A DNA stretch of 46,285 nucleotides, from the IMG/VR virus record IMGVR_UViG_3300038393_001395, positions 1-46,285 of that record. One strand, 5' to 3'. The notes under the pieces were generated by a model, which was not told the origin of the DNA, did no database searches, and saw only the letters and a list, made by a program, of their open reading frames with translations. The stretch is from a virus. Its lineage: Duplodnaviria; Caudoviricetes. Positions within the stretch are counted from its first letter, which is position 1; every line of letters begins with the position of its first letter. Both the position numbers and the translations under genes were made by a program. Positions 24,365 to 44,409 of this stretch are shown in pieces.

Positions 24365-24394
24365 CCCGTGCGGCTCCCCCTCGGTGTGAGAGGA

Positions 24395-24436
24395 AGATTA
24401 TCGGGCGGTCCGATAATGTCAATCGGACAATCCGAT
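24395..24436 (-). promoter_or_regulatory. PL promoter with OL operators (24400-24414, 24422-24436)
   Basis: Minus strand TTGACA-16nt-TAATCT; operators ATCGGGCGGTCCGAT and ATCGGACAATCCGAT. Confidence 0.75.
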
Positions 24437-24463: not shown

Positions 24464-24487
24464 AAAAAAGCCCCGCCGAAGCGGGGC
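24464..24487 (-). terminator. Terminator of the cI immunity transcript
   Basis: Minus strand GCCCCGC-TTCG-GCGGGGC followed by T6. Confidence 0.8.
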
Positions 24488-24512
24488 CTGCGTTAAACGG
24501 TTGGATCGGTCG

Positions 24513-25448
24513 TCAGAACCGGATCGGGACCACGACCAGGGCGCCAGTCGTGGCCCCGCCGTCCACCGTCCGTGCGGACGACCGATAGAACCTCGTCGCC
24601 CTCAACGCGGGTTCGGCGACCGCAGCCGGAACGGCGCTTGTAACCTCGCAATCGGACAACTCGCCCGACCCGCCGATGACGCATTCCAGCATGGCGCGCC
24701 CGCTTCCGGCCGGCGCTTCGGCGGCGAGCTGCTCGGCCGATGGCCGGGACACCCAATTGGGGTTCGTCACGACGCGCGTCGGTCGGCGTCCCCGCATCCG
24801 CGCCAGCTCGCTCCCGTTGGCATCCACCACGGCCACGCGGCTAAACACGGCTGAGACCGCGCATCGGCGCGTAGTGACCTGGGTTGGGTCGTCAAAGGTC
24901 GGACTCTCATAGCCGTCCTCGCAGGTTATGGCGCGCCCGTTCGGAGCGACAATGCTGCCCTCCATGACCAGCCTCATCTCTGACGCCAGCGCCCGAGCTT
25001 TGGCGGGCGGCACCTGAAGCGAGACGTCGAACCCCGTAAGGTCGTCGCCTGTCAGGACGTAACGAAGGCGGATATAGGACTTCACCTTTACCTTGGCCCC
25101 GAACGCATTCTGGGCTGGGGTCTCTCCGACTTTTCTCGTCACCGAGTAGAAGACCGCGTCCCGGTACATTCCGGCATGAATGCCGAGCGTCTGCGTGTTC
25201 GGGTCGTAGGTCCAATACGCCGAGCCGCCAGTCCCGTCGTCTTTACTCAGCAGGGGGAGGCTGACCCTGAACGCTTTTCCCGCGAGATCGGCTCCGGCGG
25301 GACCAGGCTCAAACCGGTCTTTGCGCTCGTAAGTCGCTACCGTCCTGGTGGCGTTGAAAAGGTCGTCGTCGGTCAGGGGCGAGGCGGCTCGGGCTGGAAG
25401 TGTCGGGCCCATCGCCAAGGCCAAGCCTATCAGGTAGTGCCGCATCAC
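24513..25448 (-). CDS. Secreted protein with C-terminal TonB-C domain
   Basis: Signal peptide (MRHYLIGLALAMG...ARA); C-terminal NPNWVSRPS...GRAMLEC.I..SG.LSDCEV...VDG...VVVPIRF. Confidence 0.7.
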   Translation of the reverse strand: MMRHYLIGLALAMGPTLPARAASPLTDDDLFNATRTVATYERKDRFEPGPAGADLAGKAFRVSLPLLSKDDGTGGSAYWTYDPNTQTLGIHAGMYRDAVFYSVTRKVGETPAQNAFGAKVKVKSYIRLRYVLTGDDLTGFDVSLQVPPAKARALASEMRLVMEGSIVAPNGRAITCEDGYESPTFDDPTQVTTRRCAVSAVFSRVAVVDANGSELARMRGRRPTRVVTNPNWVSRPSAEQLAAEAPAGSGRAMLECVIGGSGELSDCEVTSAVPAAVAEPALRATRFYRSSARTVDGGATTGALVVVPIRF

Positions 25449-25466
25449 GTCCCCCTCGGTGTGTGC

Positions 25467-26192
25467 CTATCTGCGCGACCTTCGCCACTGGATGGGCGGC
25501 GGCGGCCTCTCTTCCTTGCGGAAGCTCCCCACGACCACGAACGCGATCTCGGGCCGGTCCTGGTCGTCCGGCGAGTTCACGTCGAGGTAGATGCGGTCCT
25601 GATGATCGGGGTGGTTCGAGCGGGGGAGGAGGGCGACGCGGCCCCCTTCCTCGACAGCGACTTCCTTGATGGTCGCCTCGCGCAGCTCGCCTTGCGAGCG
25701 GTACACCACCACCCTATCGCCGGGCCGCACGTCGGTGTCCTGCGCGTCGGCCACGATGACGAACGTGCCGTCCGGGTAAAGCTGGTCCACGGATGGCCCC
25801 AGCACCTTGAGCGCCCGGAGGCGAATGCCTTCGTAACCCTGGAGGGCAACGGGGATCTGGTAGCGATCCTCCTCGGGATACTCCAACGCCAATTTGAACG
25901 CGCCCCCCTGCACTTCACCGACGACATCGATGCCTCTGATTGTGGCGGAGGTATGTACGACGGCGGACGGTGTTGGGCGCCCAAGCTGGGTGTCCTCCAA
26001 CGACTCCTCTGGAATTCCAAGGGCGCGGGCCAGCTGCGGCTTGTAGTCACGCCATGATTGCAGGGTGTCGCGTTCCCAGTCGGAAACGACGGACTGGGTC
26101 ACGCCTAGGCGCTCACCGAGAGCCCCTTGCGTCAGGTGCGCGCGTTTTCGCGCGGCCTTGATTCTGCCCCCCGGCGTCATGGCCGCGAGCAT
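25467..26192 (-). CDS. cI: CI-like repressor (XRE HTH plus S24 peptidase); start 26192 or 26180
   Basis: RIKAARKRAHLTQ..LG..LGVTQS.VS.WE; GEVQGG cleavage region; GPSV (Ser) and ATIK (Lys). Confidence 0.9.
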   Translation of the reverse strand: MLAAMTPGGRIKAARKRAHLTQGALGERLGVTQSVVSDWERDTLQSWRDYKPQLARALGIPEESLEDTQLGRPTPSAVVHTSATIRGIDVVGEVQGGAFKLALEYPEEDRYQIPVALQGYEGIRLRALKVLGPSVDQLYPDGTFVIVADAQDTDVRPGDRVVVYRSQGELREATIKEVAVEEGGRVALLPRSNHPDHQDRIYLDVNSPDDQDRPEIAFVVVGSFRKEERPPPPIQWRRSRR

Positions 26193-26222: not shown

Positions 26223-26258
26223 ATCGGAGCTTGCGATTATCGGTTCATCCGATAATAT
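26223..26258 (+). promoter_or_regulatory. OR operators (26223-26237, 26239-26253) and PR
   Basis: ATCGGAGCTTGCGAT and ATCGGTTCATCCGAT match the OL consensus; TTGCGA-16nt-TAATAT. Confidence 0.75.
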
Positions 26259-26265
26259 CGAGTCT

Positions 26266-26511
26266 ATGTCCGATACAGACGACGCCTTGAACGTCATCGT
26301 TCACCTCAAAAGCCGCTTCGGGACGCAGACCCGTCTCGCGGCGGCGGCCGGCGTCCGACAGAATACCATTACCGACAGGAAGAACGCGAACTCCCTAACG
26401 CACCAGCAGATGCGAAGCATCCTGCAGGCCGCCCCCAAGATGGGGGTCAAAGTCGATCCTTGGGACTTCTTTCCCGAGTTGAGGCGCTCGGCTCAGGAGC
26501 GCTCTCAGTGA
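26266..26511 (+). CDS. cro: Cro-like repressor
   Basis: FGTQTRLAAAAGVRQNTI HTH; divergent from cI. Confidence 0.8.
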   Translation: MSDTDDALNVIVHLKSRFGTQTRLAAAAGVRQNTITDRKNANSLTHQQMRSILQAAPKMGVKVDPWDFFPELRRSAQERSQ

Positions 26512-26645
26512 CCTTGTCGGTTCTTCCGATTTCCAATCGCCCCAGCTGCCCGCGGTCCCGACTGGTGGGCCACGGGCGGGCGGGCCCCCTGTTTTTCGGA
26601 AAAGGGCTGGGGGCCCGCCACCTATCGCGCGCCTCCACCTCCCCC

Positions 26646-26926: not shown

Positions 26927-27376
26927 GTGACCTCGCGTGAACATGCCCGGCTCGCTCGTGAACTGATCACCGCGTGCGGCGGCCTCGACGAGTGCGCCGC
27001 CAACTGCCGCGTCAGCAAGGCGAACCTGTCCCGATACCAGAACCCGCATGAGGAGTGCTTCATGCCGGCGGACGTGATCGCGGACCTGGAGACCTACTGT
27101 GGCCGGCCGATCTACTCGGCGGCCCTGTTCGACCGGTTCGAGCAGCCCAGGGCCGAGGCGTCCGACCTCCGCGAGGCCGTGTTCACCCTGACGGAGGAGT
27201 CCGCCGACCTGCAGCGGGTCGCCCGCGAGGTGCTGGCCGATGGCCGGATCACCCCGCGCGAGCTCGACCGCCTGGCCGAGGAAGAGCGGCAGGCCGAAGC
27301 CGCCCTGCAGAAGGTCCGCGCCGCCCGTCAGGCTGCGGAAGCCGCCCAACAACGACCGGCCCTCAAGGCCGTCTGA
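26927..27376 (+). CDS. CII-like regulator
   Basis: L...CGG.......RVS...LSRY...MPADVIADLE; LADGRITP.E; AGGAG RBS; position after cro. Confidence 0.7.
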   Translation: MTSREHARLARELITACGGLDECAANCRVSKANLSRYQNPHEECFMPADVIADLETYCGRPIYSAALFDRFEQPRAEASDLREAVFTLTEESADLQRVAREVLADGRITPRELDRLAEEERQAEAALQKVRAARQAAEAAQQRPALKAV

Positions 27377-27490: not shown

Positions 27491-27901
27491 GTGGCCCGTT
27501 CCATGAACTACGTCCCGAGCGACCGTGCCCTGCTGCATGGTGCGTTCGCCGTTTCCGCCGTGCCCATGGTGCTGATCGGCGGTTCCATGCTCGCCATCGG
27601 AGACACGGGTCCCGCCGTGTGGATGGGGGTGAGCCTGCTCGCCACGGCCGGGTGCTGGCGCTGGGCCTTGGCGGCCTTCGCGCCCAAGCGCCCGGACCTC
27701 GCCGCCCTGCGCGCCGCCGACCCGCGCTCGGACGAGGAGATCCTGGCCGGGGACGAGGTGTTCCAGCAGCTCAAGAAGCAGGTCGAAGCCGCTCGCCGGC
27801 GCAAGCAGCGGTACGCGCACCTGGAAGCGCGGTTGACCGCCTATCGTGCCCGGACCCTGCAGCGCGCCCGGGCCTTCCGTCTGACGGAGGGCTGGGCGTG
27901 A
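27491..27901 (+). CDS. 2-TM membrane protein with basic C-terminal coil
   Basis: Hydrophobic N-terminal half. Confidence 0.55.
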   Translation: MARSMNYVPSDRALLHGAFAVSAVPMVLIGGSMLAIGDTGPAVWMGVSLLATAGCWRWALAAFAPKRPDLAALRAADPRSDEEILAGDEVFQQLKKQVEAARRRKQRYAHLEARLTAYRARTLQRARAFRLTEGWA

Positions 27902-28617
27902 GCTGGACCCCGCAAATCGAGAAGGTCGCGCGCGAGCTGTGGCTGTTAAACCAGAGCGCCGGGACTGTGGCGCAGACGCTGAACGCCCGCTTCAACACCC
28001 GCTTCACACGTAATTCGGTGATCGGGAAGGCGTGGCGGCGGGGCTGGTCGGTGGACCGCAACGATGACGCGCCGCAGTTCGGCGGGGCGCAGAACGACGT
28101 GTGGACCGCCGACAAGGTGGCGGTCCTGCGCCGCCTGATCGACGCGGACGTGCCCTATGTGCAGATCGCCGAGGCGCTAGGCGCGGGCTTCAGCGCCGGG
28201 TCCGTTTCCGGCAAGGTCAAGAGGCTGGGGTGGTCCTCGCCGCGTGGCTCGATGGAACACGGCGTCAAGCAGGCCCGCAACGCGGCCGCGGCTCGTCGCG
28301 CGCAAGCGTGGCGCGTCGAAAACCGCCCGTCCCGCGCCCCCGCCGAACCGAAGCGTCCGCCCATGTTGATTCCATCGCCTGGGGATGCGCGCGCCCTCGC
28401 CGACCTGAAGCGCGGACAATGTCGATGGCCGCTAGACCTCAGCGTGACCGTCGAGGCCGACGCCACCACCCTCTTTTGCGGCGCCCACGCCCACGACCAT
28501 GAGGAGGCCGAGCGGCCCTACTGCCCCTACCACACCAAGCGCGCGTCCTCGGCTGGGATGGGGCGCAAGCCCGCGACGGTCAAGGACCTGGTCCGCGGCC
28601 TTCGGAGGTTCGCGTGA
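27898..28617 (+). CDS. gcrA: GcrA-like cell-cycle regulator, 239 aa, duplicated N-terminal domain
   Basis: SWT...LW....SA..A..L...TRNSVIGK; a second WT...L..L...IAEALG...SV.GK.KRLG; C-terminal L.DL....CRWP...FCG...PYC..H. Confidence 0.85.
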   Translation: MSWTPQIEKVARELWLLNQSAGTVAQTLNARFNTRFTRNSVIGKAWRRGWSVDRNDDAPQFGGAQNDVWTADKVAVLRRLIDADVPYVQIAEALGAGFSAGSVSGKVKRLGWSSPRGSMEHGVKQARNAAAARRAQAWRVENRPSRAPAEPKRPPMLIPSPGDARALADLKRGQCRWPLDLSVTVEADATTLFCGAHAHDHEEAERPYCPYHTKRASSAGMGRKPATVKDLVRGLRRFA

Positions 28618-38397: not shown

Positions 38398-38401
38398 CCG
38401 C

Positions 38402-39091
38402 ATGGCCGGATGGGAGACCAAGGGCGTGTCCGGCGTGGACCGCCTCGCCTTCGACTGCGAGATCAAGCTCGCCGGCGACGGTAACGAGGGCACGGTCGAG
38501 GGCTACGCCTCGGTGTTCGGGATCCTCGACCGCGGCGGCGACATGGTGATGCCGGGCGCCTTCAAGGCGAGCCTGGCCGAGTGGAAGCGCAAGAAGGCCT
38601 TCCCGCCCATGCTCTGGCAGCACGACCCGTCCCAGCCCATCGGGGTGTGGACGGAGATGGTCGAGGACGACAAGGGCCTGAAGGTGAAGGGCGAGCTGGT
38701 GCTCGACGTGCCTCTGGCCGCCACCGCCCGCGCGCTGATCAAGGCCGGCGCGGTGAAGGGCCTGTCCATCGGCTACCTGACCCGCGACGCCGACATCGAC
38801 CGGCAGACCGGCGCCCGGCACCTGAAGAAGGTGGACCTGTGGGAAGTCTCCCCGGTCACCTTCCCCATGCTGCCGGAAGCCCAGATCACGGGCGTGAAGG
38901 GCGATTTCGACCCGAGCGCCTGGGAGAAGGCCTTTCGCGACGAAGGGCTCTCCAACCGCGAAGCCAAGCTCGCGACGAGCGTGGCCCGCAAGCTTGTCCT
39001 CCGTGACGGAGGGCGTTCCGAGACCACCCGCCGAGACGGCGGCGCTGATCTCCTGATGTCCCTCCGCAAGGCCTCCGAGGCCCTGCGCTAA
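38402..39091 (+). CDS. Prohead protease (HK97 family)
   Basis: EGYASVF, MLWQHD..PIG, GLSIGY, LWEVS.VTFP. Confidence 0.95.
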   Translation: MAGWETKGVSGVDRLAFDCEIKLAGDGNEGTVEGYASVFGILDRGGDMVMPGAFKASLAEWKRKKAFPPMLWQHDPSQPIGVWTEMVEDDKGLKVKGELVLDVPLAATARALIKAGAVKGLSIGYLTRDADIDRQTGARHLKKVDLWEVSPVTFPMLPEAQITGVKGDFDPSAWEKAFRDEGLSNREAKLATSVARKLVLRDGGRSETTRRDGGADLLMSLRKASEALR

Positions 39092-39108
39092 CCACGGAAA
39101 ACCCCGAC

Positions 39109-40464
39109 ATGATGCACTACCGCAAGTCGGCGCTGCTGAGCGGCGCCGCCCTCTCCCTCGCGCCCGAGCGCAAGGACGACGACGCCTCGCAACTGACCGC
39201 CGAGGTGAAGAAGGCCGTCGACGGCCTGACCGCCACCTTCGAAGAGTTCAAGCGCAAGAACGACGAGCGCCTGAAGCAGGCCGAGAAGAAGGGCGAAGAC
39301 GCCGTCACCAAGGACGAAGTCGAGAAGCTGAACAAGGCGATCGACCAAGGCCTGGCCGACATCAAGAAGCGCATGGACGAGACCGAAGCCAAGGCCAACC
39401 GCCTGGCCCTGTCGGGCGGCGGCGCCGGCGACGTCGAGGCCAAGGCCGCGGCCGACCTCGGCAAGATGCTCGGCAAGTCCGACCTGAGCGTGGCCGAGTA
39501 CCGCGAATACAAGTCGGCCGTGGACTCCTACATCCGCCGCAACGAGGTGAAGACCGTCACGCTGCAGGCCGGCTCGGACCCGGCCGGCGGCTACCTGATC
39601 ACCCCGGACACCTCGGGCCGGCTGGTGAAGAAGGTCTACGAGAGCTCGCCGATGCGCCAGCTCGCCAACGTCGTGAACATCGGCACCGACTCGCTGGAAG
39701 GTCCGATCGACAACGGCGAGGCCGACGCGGCCTGGGTGGGCGAGCAGGGCACCCGCTCGCAGACCGACGCGCCGCAGTTCGGCAAGTGGACCATCGCGGC
39801 CCACGAGCTGTACGCCTACCCGAAGGCCACCCAGAAGTCCCTCGAAGACGCCAACATGGACATCGAGGCCTGGCTGGCGGGCAAGGCGGCCGACAAGTTC
39901 GCCCGCAAGGAGACCACGGCGTTCTACACCGGCTCGGGCATCCTGCAGCCGCAGGGCATCCTGACCTATCAGTTCGCCGCCACCGCCGACTCCGGCCGTT
40001 CCTGGGGCACGTTCGAATACGTCGCCTCGGGCGCCTCGGGCGCGTTCGCCGCGTCCAACCCGGCCGACAAGCTGATCGACCTGATCTTCGCGCTGAAGGC
40101 GGCCTACCGCGCCAACGCGAAGTTCCAGATGTCGCGCTCCACCATGGGCGCGGTCCGCAAGCTGAAGGACGGCCAGGGCAACTACCTGGTCGACCTGCGC
40201 CTGCGCGACGGCGCCCTGGTCGAGACCATCTTCGGTTTCCCGAACGTGGACGCCGAGGACATGTCGGCCATCGCCGCCAACTCCTACTCCATCGGCTTCG
40301 GCGATTGGGCCGAGACCTACACCATCGTGGACCGCCTCGGGATCTCCGTGGTTCGCGACAACATCACCCAGCCGGGCTTCGTGAAGTTCCACTTCCGCAA
40401 GCGCGTGGGCGGCGGCGTCGTGAACTTCGAGTCCGCCAAGTTCATGAAATTCGCCGCCTCCTAA
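39109..40464 (+). CDS. Major capsid protein (HK97 fold with delta domain)
   Basis: N-terminal coiled coil; GGYL.P; KLKDGQGNYL; RKRVGG. Confidence 0.95.
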   Translation: MMHYRKSALLSGAALSLAPERKDDDASQLTAEVKKAVDGLTATFEEFKRKNDERLKQAEKKGEDAVTKDEVEKLNKAIDQGLADIKKRMDETEAKANRLALSGGGAGDVEAKAAADLGKMLGKSDLSVAEYREYKSAVDSYIRRNEVKTVTLQAGSDPAGGYLITPDTSGRLVKKVYESSPMRQLANVVNIGTDSLEGPIDNGEADAAWVGEQGTRSQTDAPQFGKWTIAAHELYAYPKATQKSLEDANMDIEAWLAGKAADKFARKETTAFYTGSGILQPQGILTYQFAATADSGRSWGTFEYVASGASGAFAASNPADKLIDLIFALKAAYRANAKFQMSRSTMGAVRKLKDGQGNYLVDLRLRDGALVETIFGFPNVDAEDMSAIAANSYSIGFGDWAETYTIVDRLGISVVRDNITQPGFVKFHFRKRVGGGVVNFESAKFMKFAAS

Positions 40465-40477
40465 GGCCTCCCCCGAC

Positions 40478-40501
40478 TGAGGGCGGCTCAGGCCGCCCTC
40501 A
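40478..40501 (+). terminator. Hairpin after MCP
   Basis: TGAGGGCGGC-TCAG-GCCGCCCTCA with a weak U tract. Confidence 0.5.
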
Positions 40502-40525
40502 CTTCTTCAGATAAGGAAAGCTCCC

Positions 40526-40975
40526 ATGACTCCTGAACGGGACGGGGCCACGGAAAAGAACGTGGCCGTGCTCATCCCCTCGGCCACCTACGCGGCCGAC
40601 AACACCCCGGCCGCGGTCGACAACCTGGGCTATCGGGAAGCCACCATCACCCTGCACGTCGGGGTCGGCGGCATCACCTTCTCGGGCACCAACAAGATCG
40701 AGTTCGTGCTGACCCACTCGGACGACGACTCGACCTATTCGGCCGTGTCCGACACCGACCTGGTGCTGGACAGCTACGCGCCGGCCACGATCTCGAGCGG
40801 CATCGTCCGCGCCCTGACCGCCGCCCACGCCGCGGCCACGGTGCAGAAGATCGGCTACGTGGGCGGCAAGCGCTACCTCAAGCTGCTGGCCGACTTCTCG
40901 GGCACCCACGGCACCGGCACGCCGATCTCGGCGTCCGTGGTCCGTGAGTGCGCCAACTTCGAAGGCGCGGCCTAA
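40526..40975 (+). CDS. Virion protein after MCP (possible decoration protein)
   Basis: AAGGA RBS; GYVGGKRYLK beta-rich motif. Confidence 0.6.
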   Translation: MTPERDGATEKNVAVLIPSATYAADNTPAAVDNLGYREATITLHVGVGGITFSGTNKIEFVLTHSDDDSTYSAVSDTDLVLDSYAPATISSGIVRALTAAHAAATVQKIGYVGGKRYLKLLADFSGTHGTGTPISASVVRECANFEGAA

Positions 40976-40979
40976 GCCC

Positions 40980-41561
40980 ATGCCCCTTCGCCTGCTGACG
41001 GCCCCGACCGGCCTTCCGGTCTCGCTCGATGAGGCGAAGGGGCACCTTCGTGTCGAGTCCACGGACGACGACACCCTGATCACCGGCCTGCTCACCGCGG
41101 CCGTGCAACACCTCGACGGGAAGGACGGCTGGCTCGGCCGCTGTCTCCTGCCGCAGCAATGGGCGCTCGACATCGACCACGGCTGGCCGTGCGAGGTCGA
41201 ACTTCCCCTGCTGCCGGTCACAGCCGTGGACGCGGTGAAGTACGTGGACATGGACGGGTCCGAGCAGACCCTCTCCACCGACTATTACGACGTCCACCTC
41301 GACCGGGGCCTGGTGTCCTGGGCCTACGGGGTGTGCCTGCCGGCCGCGCGCTGCCAGCGCAACGCGGTCTCGGTGGAGTTCTCGGCCGGCTACGCGGACG
41401 CCCACAGCGTCCCCGGCCCCATCAAGTCGGCCATCCTGCTTATGGTCGGAAACCTCTACGCCAACCGCGAGGCCGTTAACGTCGGCAATATCGTGACCGA
41501 CATTCCGTTCGGCGTTGACGCCCTGCTCGCCCCCTACCGCGTCCGACGCACGGTCGCCTGA
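40980..41561 (+). CDS. Head-tail connector (gp6-like)
   Basis: PVSLDEAK.HLRV...DD.LI; AILLMVG.LYANRE. Confidence 0.9.
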   Translation: MPLRLLTAPTGLPVSLDEAKGHLRVESTDDDTLITGLLTAAVQHLDGKDGWLGRCLLPQQWALDIDHGWPCEVELPLLPVTAVDAVKYVDMDGSEQTLSTDYYDVHLDRGLVSWAYGVCLPAARCQRNAVSVEFSAGYADAHSVPGPIKSAILLMVGNLYANREAVNVGNIVTDIPFGVDALLAPYRVRRTVA

Positions 41562-41592
41562 CGCTCCCCCTCTCGAACAAGGAACCCCGACC

Positions 41593-42096
41593 ATGACCGG
41601 AGTCACCGCCGAAGTCGGCGTCTACATCAACGGCCGGGTCACCCGGGCGAACGACCTGAACTCGGTGTCGGCCGACCTGAACGAGGACTGGTCCAAGGCG
41701 TTCGTGGCCGGCACGGGCTCGGGCGCCGGGGACCTGGTGTTCGCTGACACCCGCACCATCGCCGCGTCGGGCACCGACAACCTCGATCTCGCCGGCGGCG
41801 TCACCGACACCTTCGGCGGCACGGTCACGTTCGTGGACGTGAAGGCCATCCTGGTCCGGGCCTCGGCCGCCAACACCAACAACGTCCAGGTCGGCGGGGC
41901 CGGTTCGAACCCGTTCGTCGGCCCGATGAGCGGCACCGGCGTCACCACCCTGCCGCCGGGCGGGATCGCCTGCTGGGTTCACCCCGGCGCAGGCTGGACC
42001 GTGACCGCGGCCACCGGGGACATCCTGAAGGTCGCCAACTCGGCCGGCGGGACCTCGGTCGACTACGACATCATCATCGTCGGGGCTTCGGCCTAA
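41593..42096 (+). CDS. Hypothetical structural protein
   Basis: AAGGA RBS; Gly/Thr/Ala beta-rich. Confidence 0.65.
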   Translation: MTGVTAEVGVYINGRVTRANDLNSVSADLNEDWSKAFVAGTGSGAGDLVFADTRTIAASGTDNLDLAGGVTDTFGGTVTFVDVKAILVRASAANTNNVQVGGAGSNPFVGPMSGTGVTTLPPGGIACWVHPGAGWTVTAATGDILKVANSAGGTSVDYDIIIVGASA

Positions 42097-42100
42097 GCCG

Positions 42101-42268
42101 ATGGCCTGGGTCCAGTTCGAGCGCCGGTTCACGTTCAAGCCCCGGCCGAACGTGATGCAGGACTTCGGGCCGGGCCTGGTCAACGTCACGCGCGCCTGCG
42201 CCGCCGCGGCCGTCACCGCCGGCGCAGGCAAGCGCGCCAAGGCCCCCAAACGCGAGGAACTGCCGTGA
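42101..42268 (+). CDS. 55-aa hypothetical protein
   Basis: Read by hand (MAWVQFERRFTFKP...); coupled to the next gene. Confidence 0.55.
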   Translation: MAWVQFERRFTFKPRPNVMQDFGPGLVNVTRACAAAAVTAGAGKRAKAPKREELP

Positions 42269-42591
42269 AGGCCGGTCTCCTGCGCGAACGGGTCACGTTC
42301 GAACGCCGCGCGCTCGACGGCAACGGCGACCGGCTCGGGGCCTGGGAGGCGCAGTTCACCCGCTCGGCCCACGCCCGGCCGCTGGTCGGCGGCGAGGCGG
42401 TCATGGCCCAGCGTCTGGCCGCCAAGCAGCCTTACCTATTCACGGTGCGGGCCTGTTCGGAGACGGCCACGGTCGATCCGACGTGGCGGCTCATCTGGAA
42501 CGGCGCGGCCTTCAACATCCGGGCCGTGACCCTGAACGAGCGGCGGGACGGCTACGACATCCTGGCCGACGCCGGGGGCGCGAGTGGCTGA
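42265..42591 (+). CDS. Head closure / head-tail adaptor
   Basis: AG.LRERVTF; WRL.W.G..FNI. Confidence 0.85.
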   Translation: MKAGLLRERVTFERRALDGNGDRLGAWEAQFTRSAHARPLVGGEAVMAQRLAAKQPYLFTVRACSETATVDPTWRLIWNGAAFNIRAVTLNERRDGYDILADAGGASG

Positions 42592-42997
42592 CTCGGTCCG
42601 CACGCAGAACCTTCAACGGTTCAAGGAGAAGGTGCTCAAGCGCTTTCCCCAGGCGGCCAAGGACGAAATCCGCAAGGCGAACGACAAGAACGCCGACGAG
42701 TTCATGGCGAAGCTCCGCCAGATCGTCCCGACCGACACGGGGGAGCTGGAGCGCACCATCGCCAAGGAGCCGGGCCGCACCGAGACCGCGGTGGCGGTCG
42801 GGGTGGGGGATGCGGAGACCCCGGCCGGGCCTGTCGAATACGGGCACATGACCGGGGAGCAGGGCTCGTCGGGCCGTGAGCACGTCCGGGGGCGGCCGTT
42901 CTTCTGGCCGGCTCGCCGGGTGCTGTTCAAGCGCATGAAGAACCGGACCGCCCGGGCCATGACCAAGGCGGCCAAGATCACGGCGGGGGCGCAATGA
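42584..42997 (+). CDS. HK97 gp10-like neck protein
   Basis: P.DTG.L..TI; VEYG; RPFFWPA. Confidence 0.85.
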   Translation: MADSVRTQNLQRFKEKVLKRFPQAAKDEIRKANDKNADEFMAKLRQIVPTDTGELERTIAKEPGRTETAVAVGVGDAETPAGPVEYGHMTGEQGSSGREHVRGRPFFWPARRVLFKRMKNRTARAMTKAAKITAGAQ

Positions 42998-43413
42998 GCG
43001 GTCTGCTTTCGACCCTGCAGGACGCGGTGGAAGCCGCGCTCCGGGCCGACGACGCCCTCAATACCGCCATGGGCGGCGCGGTCCGGGTCTACGACACGGT
43101 CCCGCCGGGCGCGGCGTTCCCCTACCTCGTCCACGGCGCCCCGCAGGCCGTCCCCGACCTGGCCGAAGGCTACGCCGGCAAGGACGTGTTCGTGGAGCTG
43201 CACGTCTGGTCCCGGCCCGAACCGCCGAGCCTAGGCAAGCGCGAGGCGGCCGACATCGCCGGCGCGGTCGAAGAAGCCCTGCTGACCGACCTCGACCTCG
43301 GGGCCTGGCGCCTCACGGACGCGGTCCCTGAAGACACCCGGATATTCGACGACGGCGACGGCCTGACCCGGCACGGCGTCGTCACCGTCCGCTACCTGAC
43401 CGAACCGGCCTGA
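42994..43413 (+). CDS. Tail terminator (DUF3168)
   Basis: VYD.VP....FPY; LHVWSR; TRHGV. Confidence 0.85.
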   Translation: MSGLLSTLQDAVEAALRADDALNTAMGGAVRVYDTVPPGAAFPYLVHGAPQAVPDLAEGYAGKDVFVELHVWSRPEPPSLGKREAADIAGAVEEALLTDLDLGAWRLTDAVPEDTRIFDDGDGLTRHGVVTVRYLTEPA

Positions 43414-43438
43414 GCCGGCCCGGACCTAACCCGCCATC

Positions 43439-43459
43439 GCCCGCTTCGGCGGGCTTTTT
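43439..43459 (+). terminator. Hairpin GCCCGC-TTCG-GCGGGC followed by T5, before the tail tube gene
   Basis: Near-copy of the 7831 element. Confidence 0.55.
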
Positions 43460-43480
43460 CATGCCTGGAAGGAGCCTGCC

Positions 43481-43927
43481 ATGGCCCAAGCTCAAACCAC
43501 CAAGTTCGGCAAGTTCAAGATCTACGTCGAGGCGACCGCCGGTTCCGGCACGTTCATCGCGCCGTGCGGCCTGACCCAGAAGTCGTTCGACCTGTCGGCC
43601 TCGGCCAACGAAGACACCATCCCGGACTGCGACGACCCGGACGCCCCCGCCTGGGTGGCGCGCACGGTCGCCAGCCTGTCGGCCGGCGTGTCCGGCCAAG
43701 GCGTGTGGGACGGCGACGCCTACGCCACCTGGCGCGCCCTGTTCCTGGCCGCGGAGTCGTTCAACGTCCGCATCGAGTTCGACGAGACCGGCGCCAACGG
43801 CGGCGGCTACTACGAGGGCGCCATGGTCCTGACCGCGCTCGGCAACTCGGCCAGCATCGGCCAGCGGGTGCAGGCCTCCGTCACCCTGGCCTCGGACGGG
43901 CCGCTGACCTGGGTCGCCGCGGCGTGA
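43481..43927 (+). CDS. Major tail tube protein
   Basis: PCGLT.K...PDCDDPD; SDG...W; AAGGAG RBS. Confidence 0.85.
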   Translation: MAQAQTTKFGKFKIYVEATAGSGTFIAPCGLTQKSFDLSASANEDTIPDCDDPDAPAWVARTVASLSAGVSGQGVWDGDAYATWRALFLAAESFNVRIEFDETGANGGGYYEGAMVLTALGNSASIGQRVQASVTLASDGPLTWVAAA

Positions 43928-44409
43928 CCGTGAAGGGAACCCGCACGGGCGAAATCGTCACCGAGTGGGGCGACGAGGACCGCACGTTCCGCCTCGGCAT
44001 CGGCCAATGGCGGAAGCTTCAGGAAAAACTCGACGTGGGCCCGGGCGAACTCGCCCGGCGCCTCGGCGGGCTACTGGAGTTCCGCCGGCGGTTCCCCAAG
44101 GCGTCGATCGTGGAGCTGCTGCTGCTGGGGGGCGCCGGCGACTGGCGGGTGGACGACGTCCGTGAGGTGCTGATGCAGGGCCTCGTCGGCGGCGGGCTGA
44201 ACCCGACCGAGGCGGGCCGCCTTGTTCGCGATCTGCACGACGAGCGCCCCCTGCTCGAGAACGTCCCCCTGGCGTTCGAGATCGTGCTGGCCTCGTTCAT
44301 CGGTCCTGAGGACGAACCCCTGGGAAAGCCTCAGGGGGAGGCGGAAGCGAACCCCTCCCCCGCGGAAAGCTCCGCTTCGCCGACCTCTACGGAAACGGCG
44401 CCGTCGTAG
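43924..44409 (+). CDS. Tail assembly chaperone G (GTA gp10-like)
   Basis: Between tube and TMP; FRLGIG...LQE..D.GP; GL.GGG..P.EA. Confidence 0.8.
   Translation: MTVKGTRTGEIVTEWGDEDRTFRLGIGQWRKLQEKLDVGPGELARRLGGLLEFRRRFPKASIVELLLLGGAGDWRVDDVREVLMQGLVGGGLNPTEAGRLVRDLHDERPLLENVPLAFEIVLASFIGPEDEPLGKPQGEAEANPSPAESSASPTSTETAPS

What the first reader, a model, noticed from the sequence alone, without database searches (positions are those of the whole stretch)
24513..25448. Secreted, anchor-less TonB C-domain protein in the rexAB slot: candidate TonB-decoy superinfection exclusion
Seen: the only gene between cI and its terminator, bracketed by OL and OR, so it should be expressed in the lysogen. 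It encodes an apparent cleavable signal peptide, an unknown ~200-aa domain and a TonB C-terminal domain, with no Pro-rich linker or ExbBD-coupling TM anchor. Established: this slot holds exclusion genes in lambdoid phages (rexAB); periplasmic TonB C-terminal fragments are dominant-negative for TonB-dependent transport and phi80 infection in E. coli; Caulobacteraceae have many TonB-dependent receptors. Inference: a periplasmic decoy that occupies TonB boxes and blocks phages or bacteriocins using those receptors, a mechanism distinct from Cor-type lipoproteins.
Basis: partly seen in the sequence, partly recalled or inferred. Interest (0 to 1): 0.85.

Follow-up and report, generated by a model that had tools for sequence, protein, structure and literature searches.

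The report
Exported prophage protein, worn TonB tail
A temperate soil phage carries, right behind its repressor gene, a gene for a likely exported protein whose main, unnamed domain turns up at the same spot in two other prophages and may help keep rival phages out, while its TonB-like tail has lost the receptor-contact motif, which makes the proposed TonB-decoy role unlikely.

The parts
24513..25448 (-). Slot gene, 311 aa from GTG (310 from the next ATG): signal peptide + unnamed domain + degenerate TonB_C-like domain
25386..25448 (-). Probable Sec signal peptide, residues 1-21, A-R-A cleavage motif, no lipobox
   Evidence: sequence read by eye; hydropathy; not run through SignalP
24789..25385 (-). 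Unnamed ~200-aa beta-rich domain (residues 22-220) with conserved DxF, NAFG hairpin turn and a Cys pair (C176, C196); no Pfam, NCBIfam or PADLOC family
24516..24767 (-). TonB/TolA C-terminal-type domain (about residues 228-311), Caulobacteraceae type with Cys pair C256/C267
24699..24719 (-). Residues 244-250: AP in place of the YP motif and a 6-residue gap where relatives have the next helix
25451..25457 (-). Ribosome-binding site, inside a 14-bp leader repeated at 24375-24388
25467..26180 (-). cI repressor (HTH + S24); start may lie a few codons further upstream
24468..24489 (-). Intrinsic-terminator-like hairpin followed by a T run
24400..24436 (.). OL: two exact operator palindromes (24400-24414, 24422-24436)
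26223..26253 (.). OR: operator palindromes (26223-26237 with one mismatch, 26239-26253 exact)
26266..26511 (+). cro-like gene (weak P22_Cro/HTH hits, by position)
26927..27376 (+). cII-like activator (phrog_101, E 2.1e-14)

Best explanation
The gene sits in the cI-to-OL slot of a temperate phage and likely encodes a lysogen-expressed periplasmic protein that would act through its unnamed N-terminal domain, probably to hinder entry of other phages, with the TonB-like tail a degenerate host-derived appendage rather than the working part. Shown: layout, operators, terminator, fold of the tail, loss of YP and its helix, optional tail in the family, recurrence of the N-domain behind unrelated cI genes. 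Inferred: co-transcription with cI from PRM, Sec export and cleavage after residue 21, disulfide formation, and binding of the N-domain (probably by its long conserved beta-hairpin) to an envelope protein that incoming phage needs. The target is not identified.
For: Slot is accessory: the three closest cI genes (54-57%) with the same operator have OL 9-107 bp after the cI stop and no gene between. The N-domain lies directly behind an S24 repressor and between operator-like repeats in two other Caulobacteraceae elements: L043 (with intact TonB_C) and L044 (lipoprotein, no TonB_C); that is 2 of the 14 strongest hits in 401 family genomes. In a rough FastTree the three slot members are not sisters and L044's sister is a non-prophage copy (support 0.99), which suggests separate captures. 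Distant members lie tail-to-tail with a repressor gene (L078/80/81/82, one element; L089), beside a lysis cassette (L067) and as three copies in a phage tail region (L068). 131 of 149 relatives have no TonB tail; others carry SPOR (2), PDZ (3) or RodZ_C (1). 7 of 15 distinct related cI loci have another, unrelated-looking exported gene in this slot (signal peptides by eye). Exclusion genes in this slot: lambda rexAB (PMC11436027 passages).
Against: No expression or phenotype data. 12 of the 14 strongest family hits are not behind a cI: most are lone low-GC3 genes among housekeeping genes or in islands, so the family is not phage-specific. No member matches a PADLOC model (0 of 150) and the N-domain has no clear fold relative, so nothing ties it to defence except position. 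The signal peptide is the least hydrophobic of the 21 N-termini measured.
Confidence: 0.4

Rival explanations
1. Envelope fitness factor or passenger, not exclusion: a mobile periplasmic gene of Caulobacteraceae, picked up behind cI because that promoter is on in lysogens; it would serve some envelope-stress, binding or toxin-immunity role, or little at all.
For: Patchy, mostly non-prophage distribution with low GC3; tandem paralogues in L030 and L068; many swapped periplasmic tails; the tail here looks eroded.
Against: Three captures behind unrelated repressors and two more tail-to-tail cases point to a benefit in lysogens; the slot holds exported genes in 7 of 15 related cI loci.
Confidence: 0.33
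2. Tethered blocker: the TonB-like tail would dock the protein on the periplasmic face of a TonB-dependent receptor or another outer-membrane barrel and the N-domain would lock it; this copy has a respecialised tail.
For: The same two-domain build sits behind cI in L043 with an intact YP-helix; 18 of 149 relatives carry the fusion; distant members carry TolA-like tails (L074, L076, by eye); the model keeps the last strand that pairs with TonB boxes (PMC13253070 and PMC11658791 passages); a likely host relative has 55 Plug matches.
Against: L044 fills the slot with no tail; the YP Tyr contacts receptors and is needed in P. aeruginosa TonB1 (PMC10350073 passage) and is absent here.
Confidence: 0.15
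3. One reading: the free TonB C-domain would occupy TonB boxes, compete with host TonB and block TonB-dependent phages or bacteriocins.
For: TonB/TolA CTD fold without anchor or linker; TonB fragments can competitively inhibit energy transduction in E. coli (10.1101/2022.09.26.509584 passage); a predicted precedent exists, SIP-1; TBDR-rich hosts.
Against: YP motif and helix lost, kept in 15 of 18 relatives and in SIP-1; below family cut-offs; two thirds of the protein is another domain that is the constant part of the family; hosts already encode many signal-peptide TonB_C proteins, 11 of 14 and 4 of 6 TonB_C ORFs; no TonB-dependent Caulobacter phage is named in PMC13001222 (passages). A general decoy would also starve a host that lives on TBDR uptake (inference).
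Confidence: 0.12

Closest known systems
SIP-1 (QXV80559) of E. coli phage IsaakIselin, predicted TonB-CTD superinfection-exclusion factor (PMC12124388; abstract, outline and passages read)
   Same: Phage-encoded, signal peptide, TonB C-terminal-type fold, no anchor; exclusion proposed but untested.
   Different: SIP-1 is a 110-aa stand-alone domain that keeps YP and the next helix, lies beside the receptor-binding genes of a phage known to use the TBDR PqqU. The gene here has a 200-aa extra domain, has lost YP and the helix, lies behind cI, and its phage's receptor is unknown.
Lambda rexA-rexB (PMC11436027 passages)
   Same: Same slot: after cI, before OL, inside the operator-bracketed immunity region.
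   Different: No Rex match in Pfam, PHROGs, NCBIfam or PADLOC; Rex acts by membrane depolarisation, this protein has no TM segment and is probably periplasmic.
TonB and TolA C-terminal domains (PDB 6i97_E, 7zc8_A, 1xx3, 2gsk_B, 2grx_C; TolA 2x9a_B)
Chromosomal signal-peptide TonB_C proteins of Caulobacteraceae (L099-L121)
   Same: Signal peptide, Cys-paired TonB_C, no linker; some repeats are worn in the same place (L105, L107, L109, by eye).
   Different: Those are mostly single or tandem TonB_C repeats with other partners; I found no study of their function in the searches run (listings only).
Cor (phi80, N15) and Llp (T5) receptor-blocking lipoproteins
   Same: Exported phage proteins that block outer-membrane receptors from inside; one slot relative (L044) is a predicted lipoprotein.
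   Different: No lipobox here, much larger, no sequence match seen in the family scans.

Membership tests
TonB energy transducer | N-terminal uncleaved TM anchor | tested here: not met
   Best 19-residue hydropathy 1.02 with two prolines and A-R-A, against 1.56-2.57 in four canonical TonBs
TonB energy transducer | Pro-rich periplasmic linker | tested here: not met
   Highest Pro share 0.12 against 0.33-0.68
TonB energy transducer | TonB C-terminal fold | tested here: met
TonB energy transducer | Curated TonB_C profile cut-off | tested here: not met
   Pfam 18.6 of 24.6 bits; TIGR01352 23 of 27.1
TonB energy transducer | YP motif and following helix | tested here: not met
   AP plus 6-residue gap; 15 of 18 TonB-tailed relatives keep [YF]P; role of YP from PMC10350073
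SIP-1-type TonB-CTD exclusion factor (predicted class) | Signal peptide for export | tested here: inconclusive
   By eye and hydropathy only; conserved Cys pairs fit the periplasm
SIP-1-type TonB-CTD exclusion factor (predicted class) | Stand-alone CTD that keeps YP and helix | tested here: not met
   SIP-1 is 110 aa with the motif; this protein is two-domain and lacks it
SIP-1-type TonB-CTD exclusion factor (predicted class) | Binds the TBDR that the phage uses | not testable with these tools
   Host strain and phage receptor unknown; needs a binding assay
rexAB-slot lysogenic-conversion gene | After cI on the same strand, before terminator and OL | tested here: met
rexAB-slot lysogenic-conversion gene | Absent from close relatives (accessory) | tested here: met
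   0 of 3 closest cI loci have a gene there
rexAB-slot lysogenic-conversion gene | Expressed in the lysogen and excludes phage | not testable with these tools
   Needs a lysogen or heterologous expression
RexA/RexB | Sequence match to Rex models; multi-TM RexB | tested here: not met
   No such hit; no TM segment
Cor/Llp lipoproteins | Lipobox cysteine | tested here: not met
   First Cys is residue 176

The most novel reading that the evidence does not exclude
An undescribed periplasmic domain family is a modular exclusion factor of alphaproteobacterial prophages: the N-domain does the blocking, and swappable tails (TonB_C, TolA-like, SPOR, PDZ, lipid anchor) aim it at different envelope machines, the TonB tail docking it on TonB-dependent receptors. 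It would be the first exclusion system for Caulobacteraceae prophages that I could find and would give a role to the many secreted TonB_C domains in these hosts.
Probability: 0.13. Interest if true: 0.75.

Novelty: new member of a known kind. Interest (0 to 1): 0.38.

Why it matters
If the N-domain excludes phages, it adds an unnamed family (206 clusters at 50% identity) to envelope-level exclusion and gives a handle on Caulobacteraceae prophages, for which the listing of one search showed no such system. The case also warns the scan: a signal peptide plus TonB_C in an alphaproteobacterial phage is not by itself a decoy, because hosts carry many such genes. L043 (intact tail), L044 (no tail) and this gene (worn tail) form a natural three-way test of which domain matters.

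Full report
Setting. The window is a whole virus record of 46,285 bases with direct terminal repeats. It encodes an integrase, a capsid protein, DnaB and a GcrA homologue, so it is a temperate tailed phage. The host is inferred, not shown, to be a Caulobacteraceae: the closest cI (54-57% identity) occurs in a genome of that family, and named relatives of the slot protein come from Caulobacter sp. Root1472 and a Caulobacteraceae bacterium. The best sequencing run is a soil metagenome that may be the source.

Observation. The ORF 24513-25448 (-) is real, with a strong RBS and GC3 of 0.79, like cI (0.81) and below the core genes exonuclease, DnaB and capsid (0.92-0.96). It starts 18 bp after the cI stop and ends 24 bp before a terminator-like hairpin. 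Operator palindromes bracket the unit: two exact copies at OL, one exact and one near copy at OR, and no other exact copy in the window. Lambda's record shows the same order, cI-rexA-rexB-OL. Co-transcription with cI follows from the layout and from lambda (inference); no RNA data exist.

The tail is worn where it matters. It scores under both curated cut-offs. Against the 18 relatives that carry the same tail (15 by Pfam at E <= 0.01, 3 by eye), it has AP instead of [YF]P, a 6-residue gap over the next helix and a second 2-residue gap; 15 of the 18 keep [YF]P. PMC10350073 (passages) calls YP the most conserved TonB feature, with the Tyr contacting BtuB and FecA and needed in P. aeruginosa TonB1. 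PMC13253070 and PMC11658791 (passages) place the TonB box against the third strand, which the model keeps, so binding is not excluded.

The N-domain is the constant part. A full HMMER search gave 206 clusters at E <= 0.001, of which 150 were listed, 149 besides the query. 131 of the 149 have no TonB tail (some are fragments); SPOR (2), PDZ (3) and RodZ_C (1) tails occur, and TolA-like and ankyrin-like tails in more distant members (by eye). Most begin with a signal peptide or lipobox (by eye). No member hits PADLOC (0 of 150); 12 of 150 weakly hit the unknown phrog_13753.

Context of relatives. In 401 Caulobacteraceae genomes, 93 had a match at E <= 1e-5 and 14 at about 1e-20 or better. Two of these 14 lie directly behind an S24 repressor with operator-like repeats on both sides: L043, a prophage remnant, with an intact TonB tail, and L044, a prophage with a terminase gene, as a lipoprotein with no tail. 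Their repressors and operators differ from the window's. The other 12 are lone, mostly low-GC3 genes among housekeeping genes or in islands. Genus searches added 4 more hits in 197 genomes and none new in 44, with no cI next to them. A rough FastTree of 160 N-domains separates the three slot members and pairs L044 with a non-prophage copy; at about 28% identity this is suggestive only. Among 30 metagenome loci, one element (4 loci) and L089 have a distant member tail-to-tail with a repressor gene; many of the rest are too short to tell. Two viral loci carry members as morons elsewhere.

The slot itself is a swap site. Of 15 distinct related cI loci (6 viral, 10 genomic, one shared), 7 have an exported-looking gene within 343 bp downstream and 8 do not, among them the three closest, where OL follows cI directly (signal peptides by eye).

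Anchor-less TonB_C is ordinary in the host group. One genome has 15 TonB_C matches in 14 ORFs: 2 canonical TonBs, 1 M56-like fusion, 11 signal-peptide types. A second has 8 matches in 6 ORFs: 2 canonical, 4 signal-peptide types, beside 55 Plug matches (classes by eye). A host that encodes so many of these is unlikely to be poisoned by the architecture as such (inference), and the phage gene looks drawn from this pool.

What is known. PMC12124388 (abstract, outline, passages) predicts by AlphaFold2 that SIP-1 of phage IsaakIselin, a signal-peptide TonB C-domain homologue, binds the TBDR PqqU and blocks superinfection; untested. SIP-1 is too diverged to hit Pfam TonB_C yet keeps YP and the helix, the part lost here. 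I reached this paper through an earlier scan note; the scan has also noted TonB-domain lipoproteins in E. coli prophages and exported TonB/TolA tips on a Klebsiella plasmid (unchecked). A preprint states that TonB fragments competitively inhibit energy transduction (passage). PMC13001222 (passages) lists pili, flagellum, S-layer and smooth LPS as Caulobacter phage receptors and never mentions TonB; that is thin sampling, not proof. Searches for this family or a Caulobacter exclusion system (listings only) showed none; subscription papers and supplements were not seen.

Verdict. An exported accessory gene in a lambdoid immunity region, a known kind, built on an undescribed domain. Exclusion through the N-domain 0.40; non-exclusion envelope role or passenger 0.33; tail-tethered blocker 0.15; plain TonB decoy 0.12. 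Interest 0.38.

Noticed in passing
window 25450-25463 and 24375-24388 (-): An exact 14-bp leader, including the RBS, precedes both the slot gene and the first PL gene; these are its only two copies in the window. It may mark how the gene was inserted, or only a favoured RBS context.
   Followed up: partly
window 26516-26530: An operator-like site with one mismatch just after the cro-like gene.
   Followed up: no
window 27820-28614 (+): Phage-encoded GcrA cell-cycle regulator homologue (Pfam E 2.3e-19).
   Followed up: no
L105, L109, L111, L116-L118 (G001:C46, about 38,400-44,000): A cluster of six signal-peptide TonB_C genes within about 6 kb in one Caulobacteraceae genome, several with tandem, partly worn repeats; function not found in my searches.
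   Followed up: partly
L059, L062, L064, L065, L066, L010, L011 (just after cI): Unrelated-looking exported proteins or lipoproteins fill the same post-cI slot in other alphaproteobacterial prophages; the L059 lipoprotein has an NGFGA stretch recalling this family's hairpin turn.
   Followed up: partly
L068: 7-450, 3581-4441, 4581-5396: Three diverged copies of a distant family member flank a tape-measure-like gene in a viral contig.
   Followed up: no
L029-L041 and L148: A more distant, apparently chromosomal subfamily, often beside ahcY or a membrane-transporter gene (by eye), with three tandem copies in L030.
   Followed up: no
L047: 3884-4660 and 4660-8445: A family member abuts a 1261-aa ORF without Pfam match in an island-like contig; possibly a defence gene, untested.
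   Followed up: partly
L043: 4555-7752: Prophage remnant reduced to cII-cro-cI, the intact-tail homologue and an integrase fragment; the retention of this module may be informative.
   Followed up: partly
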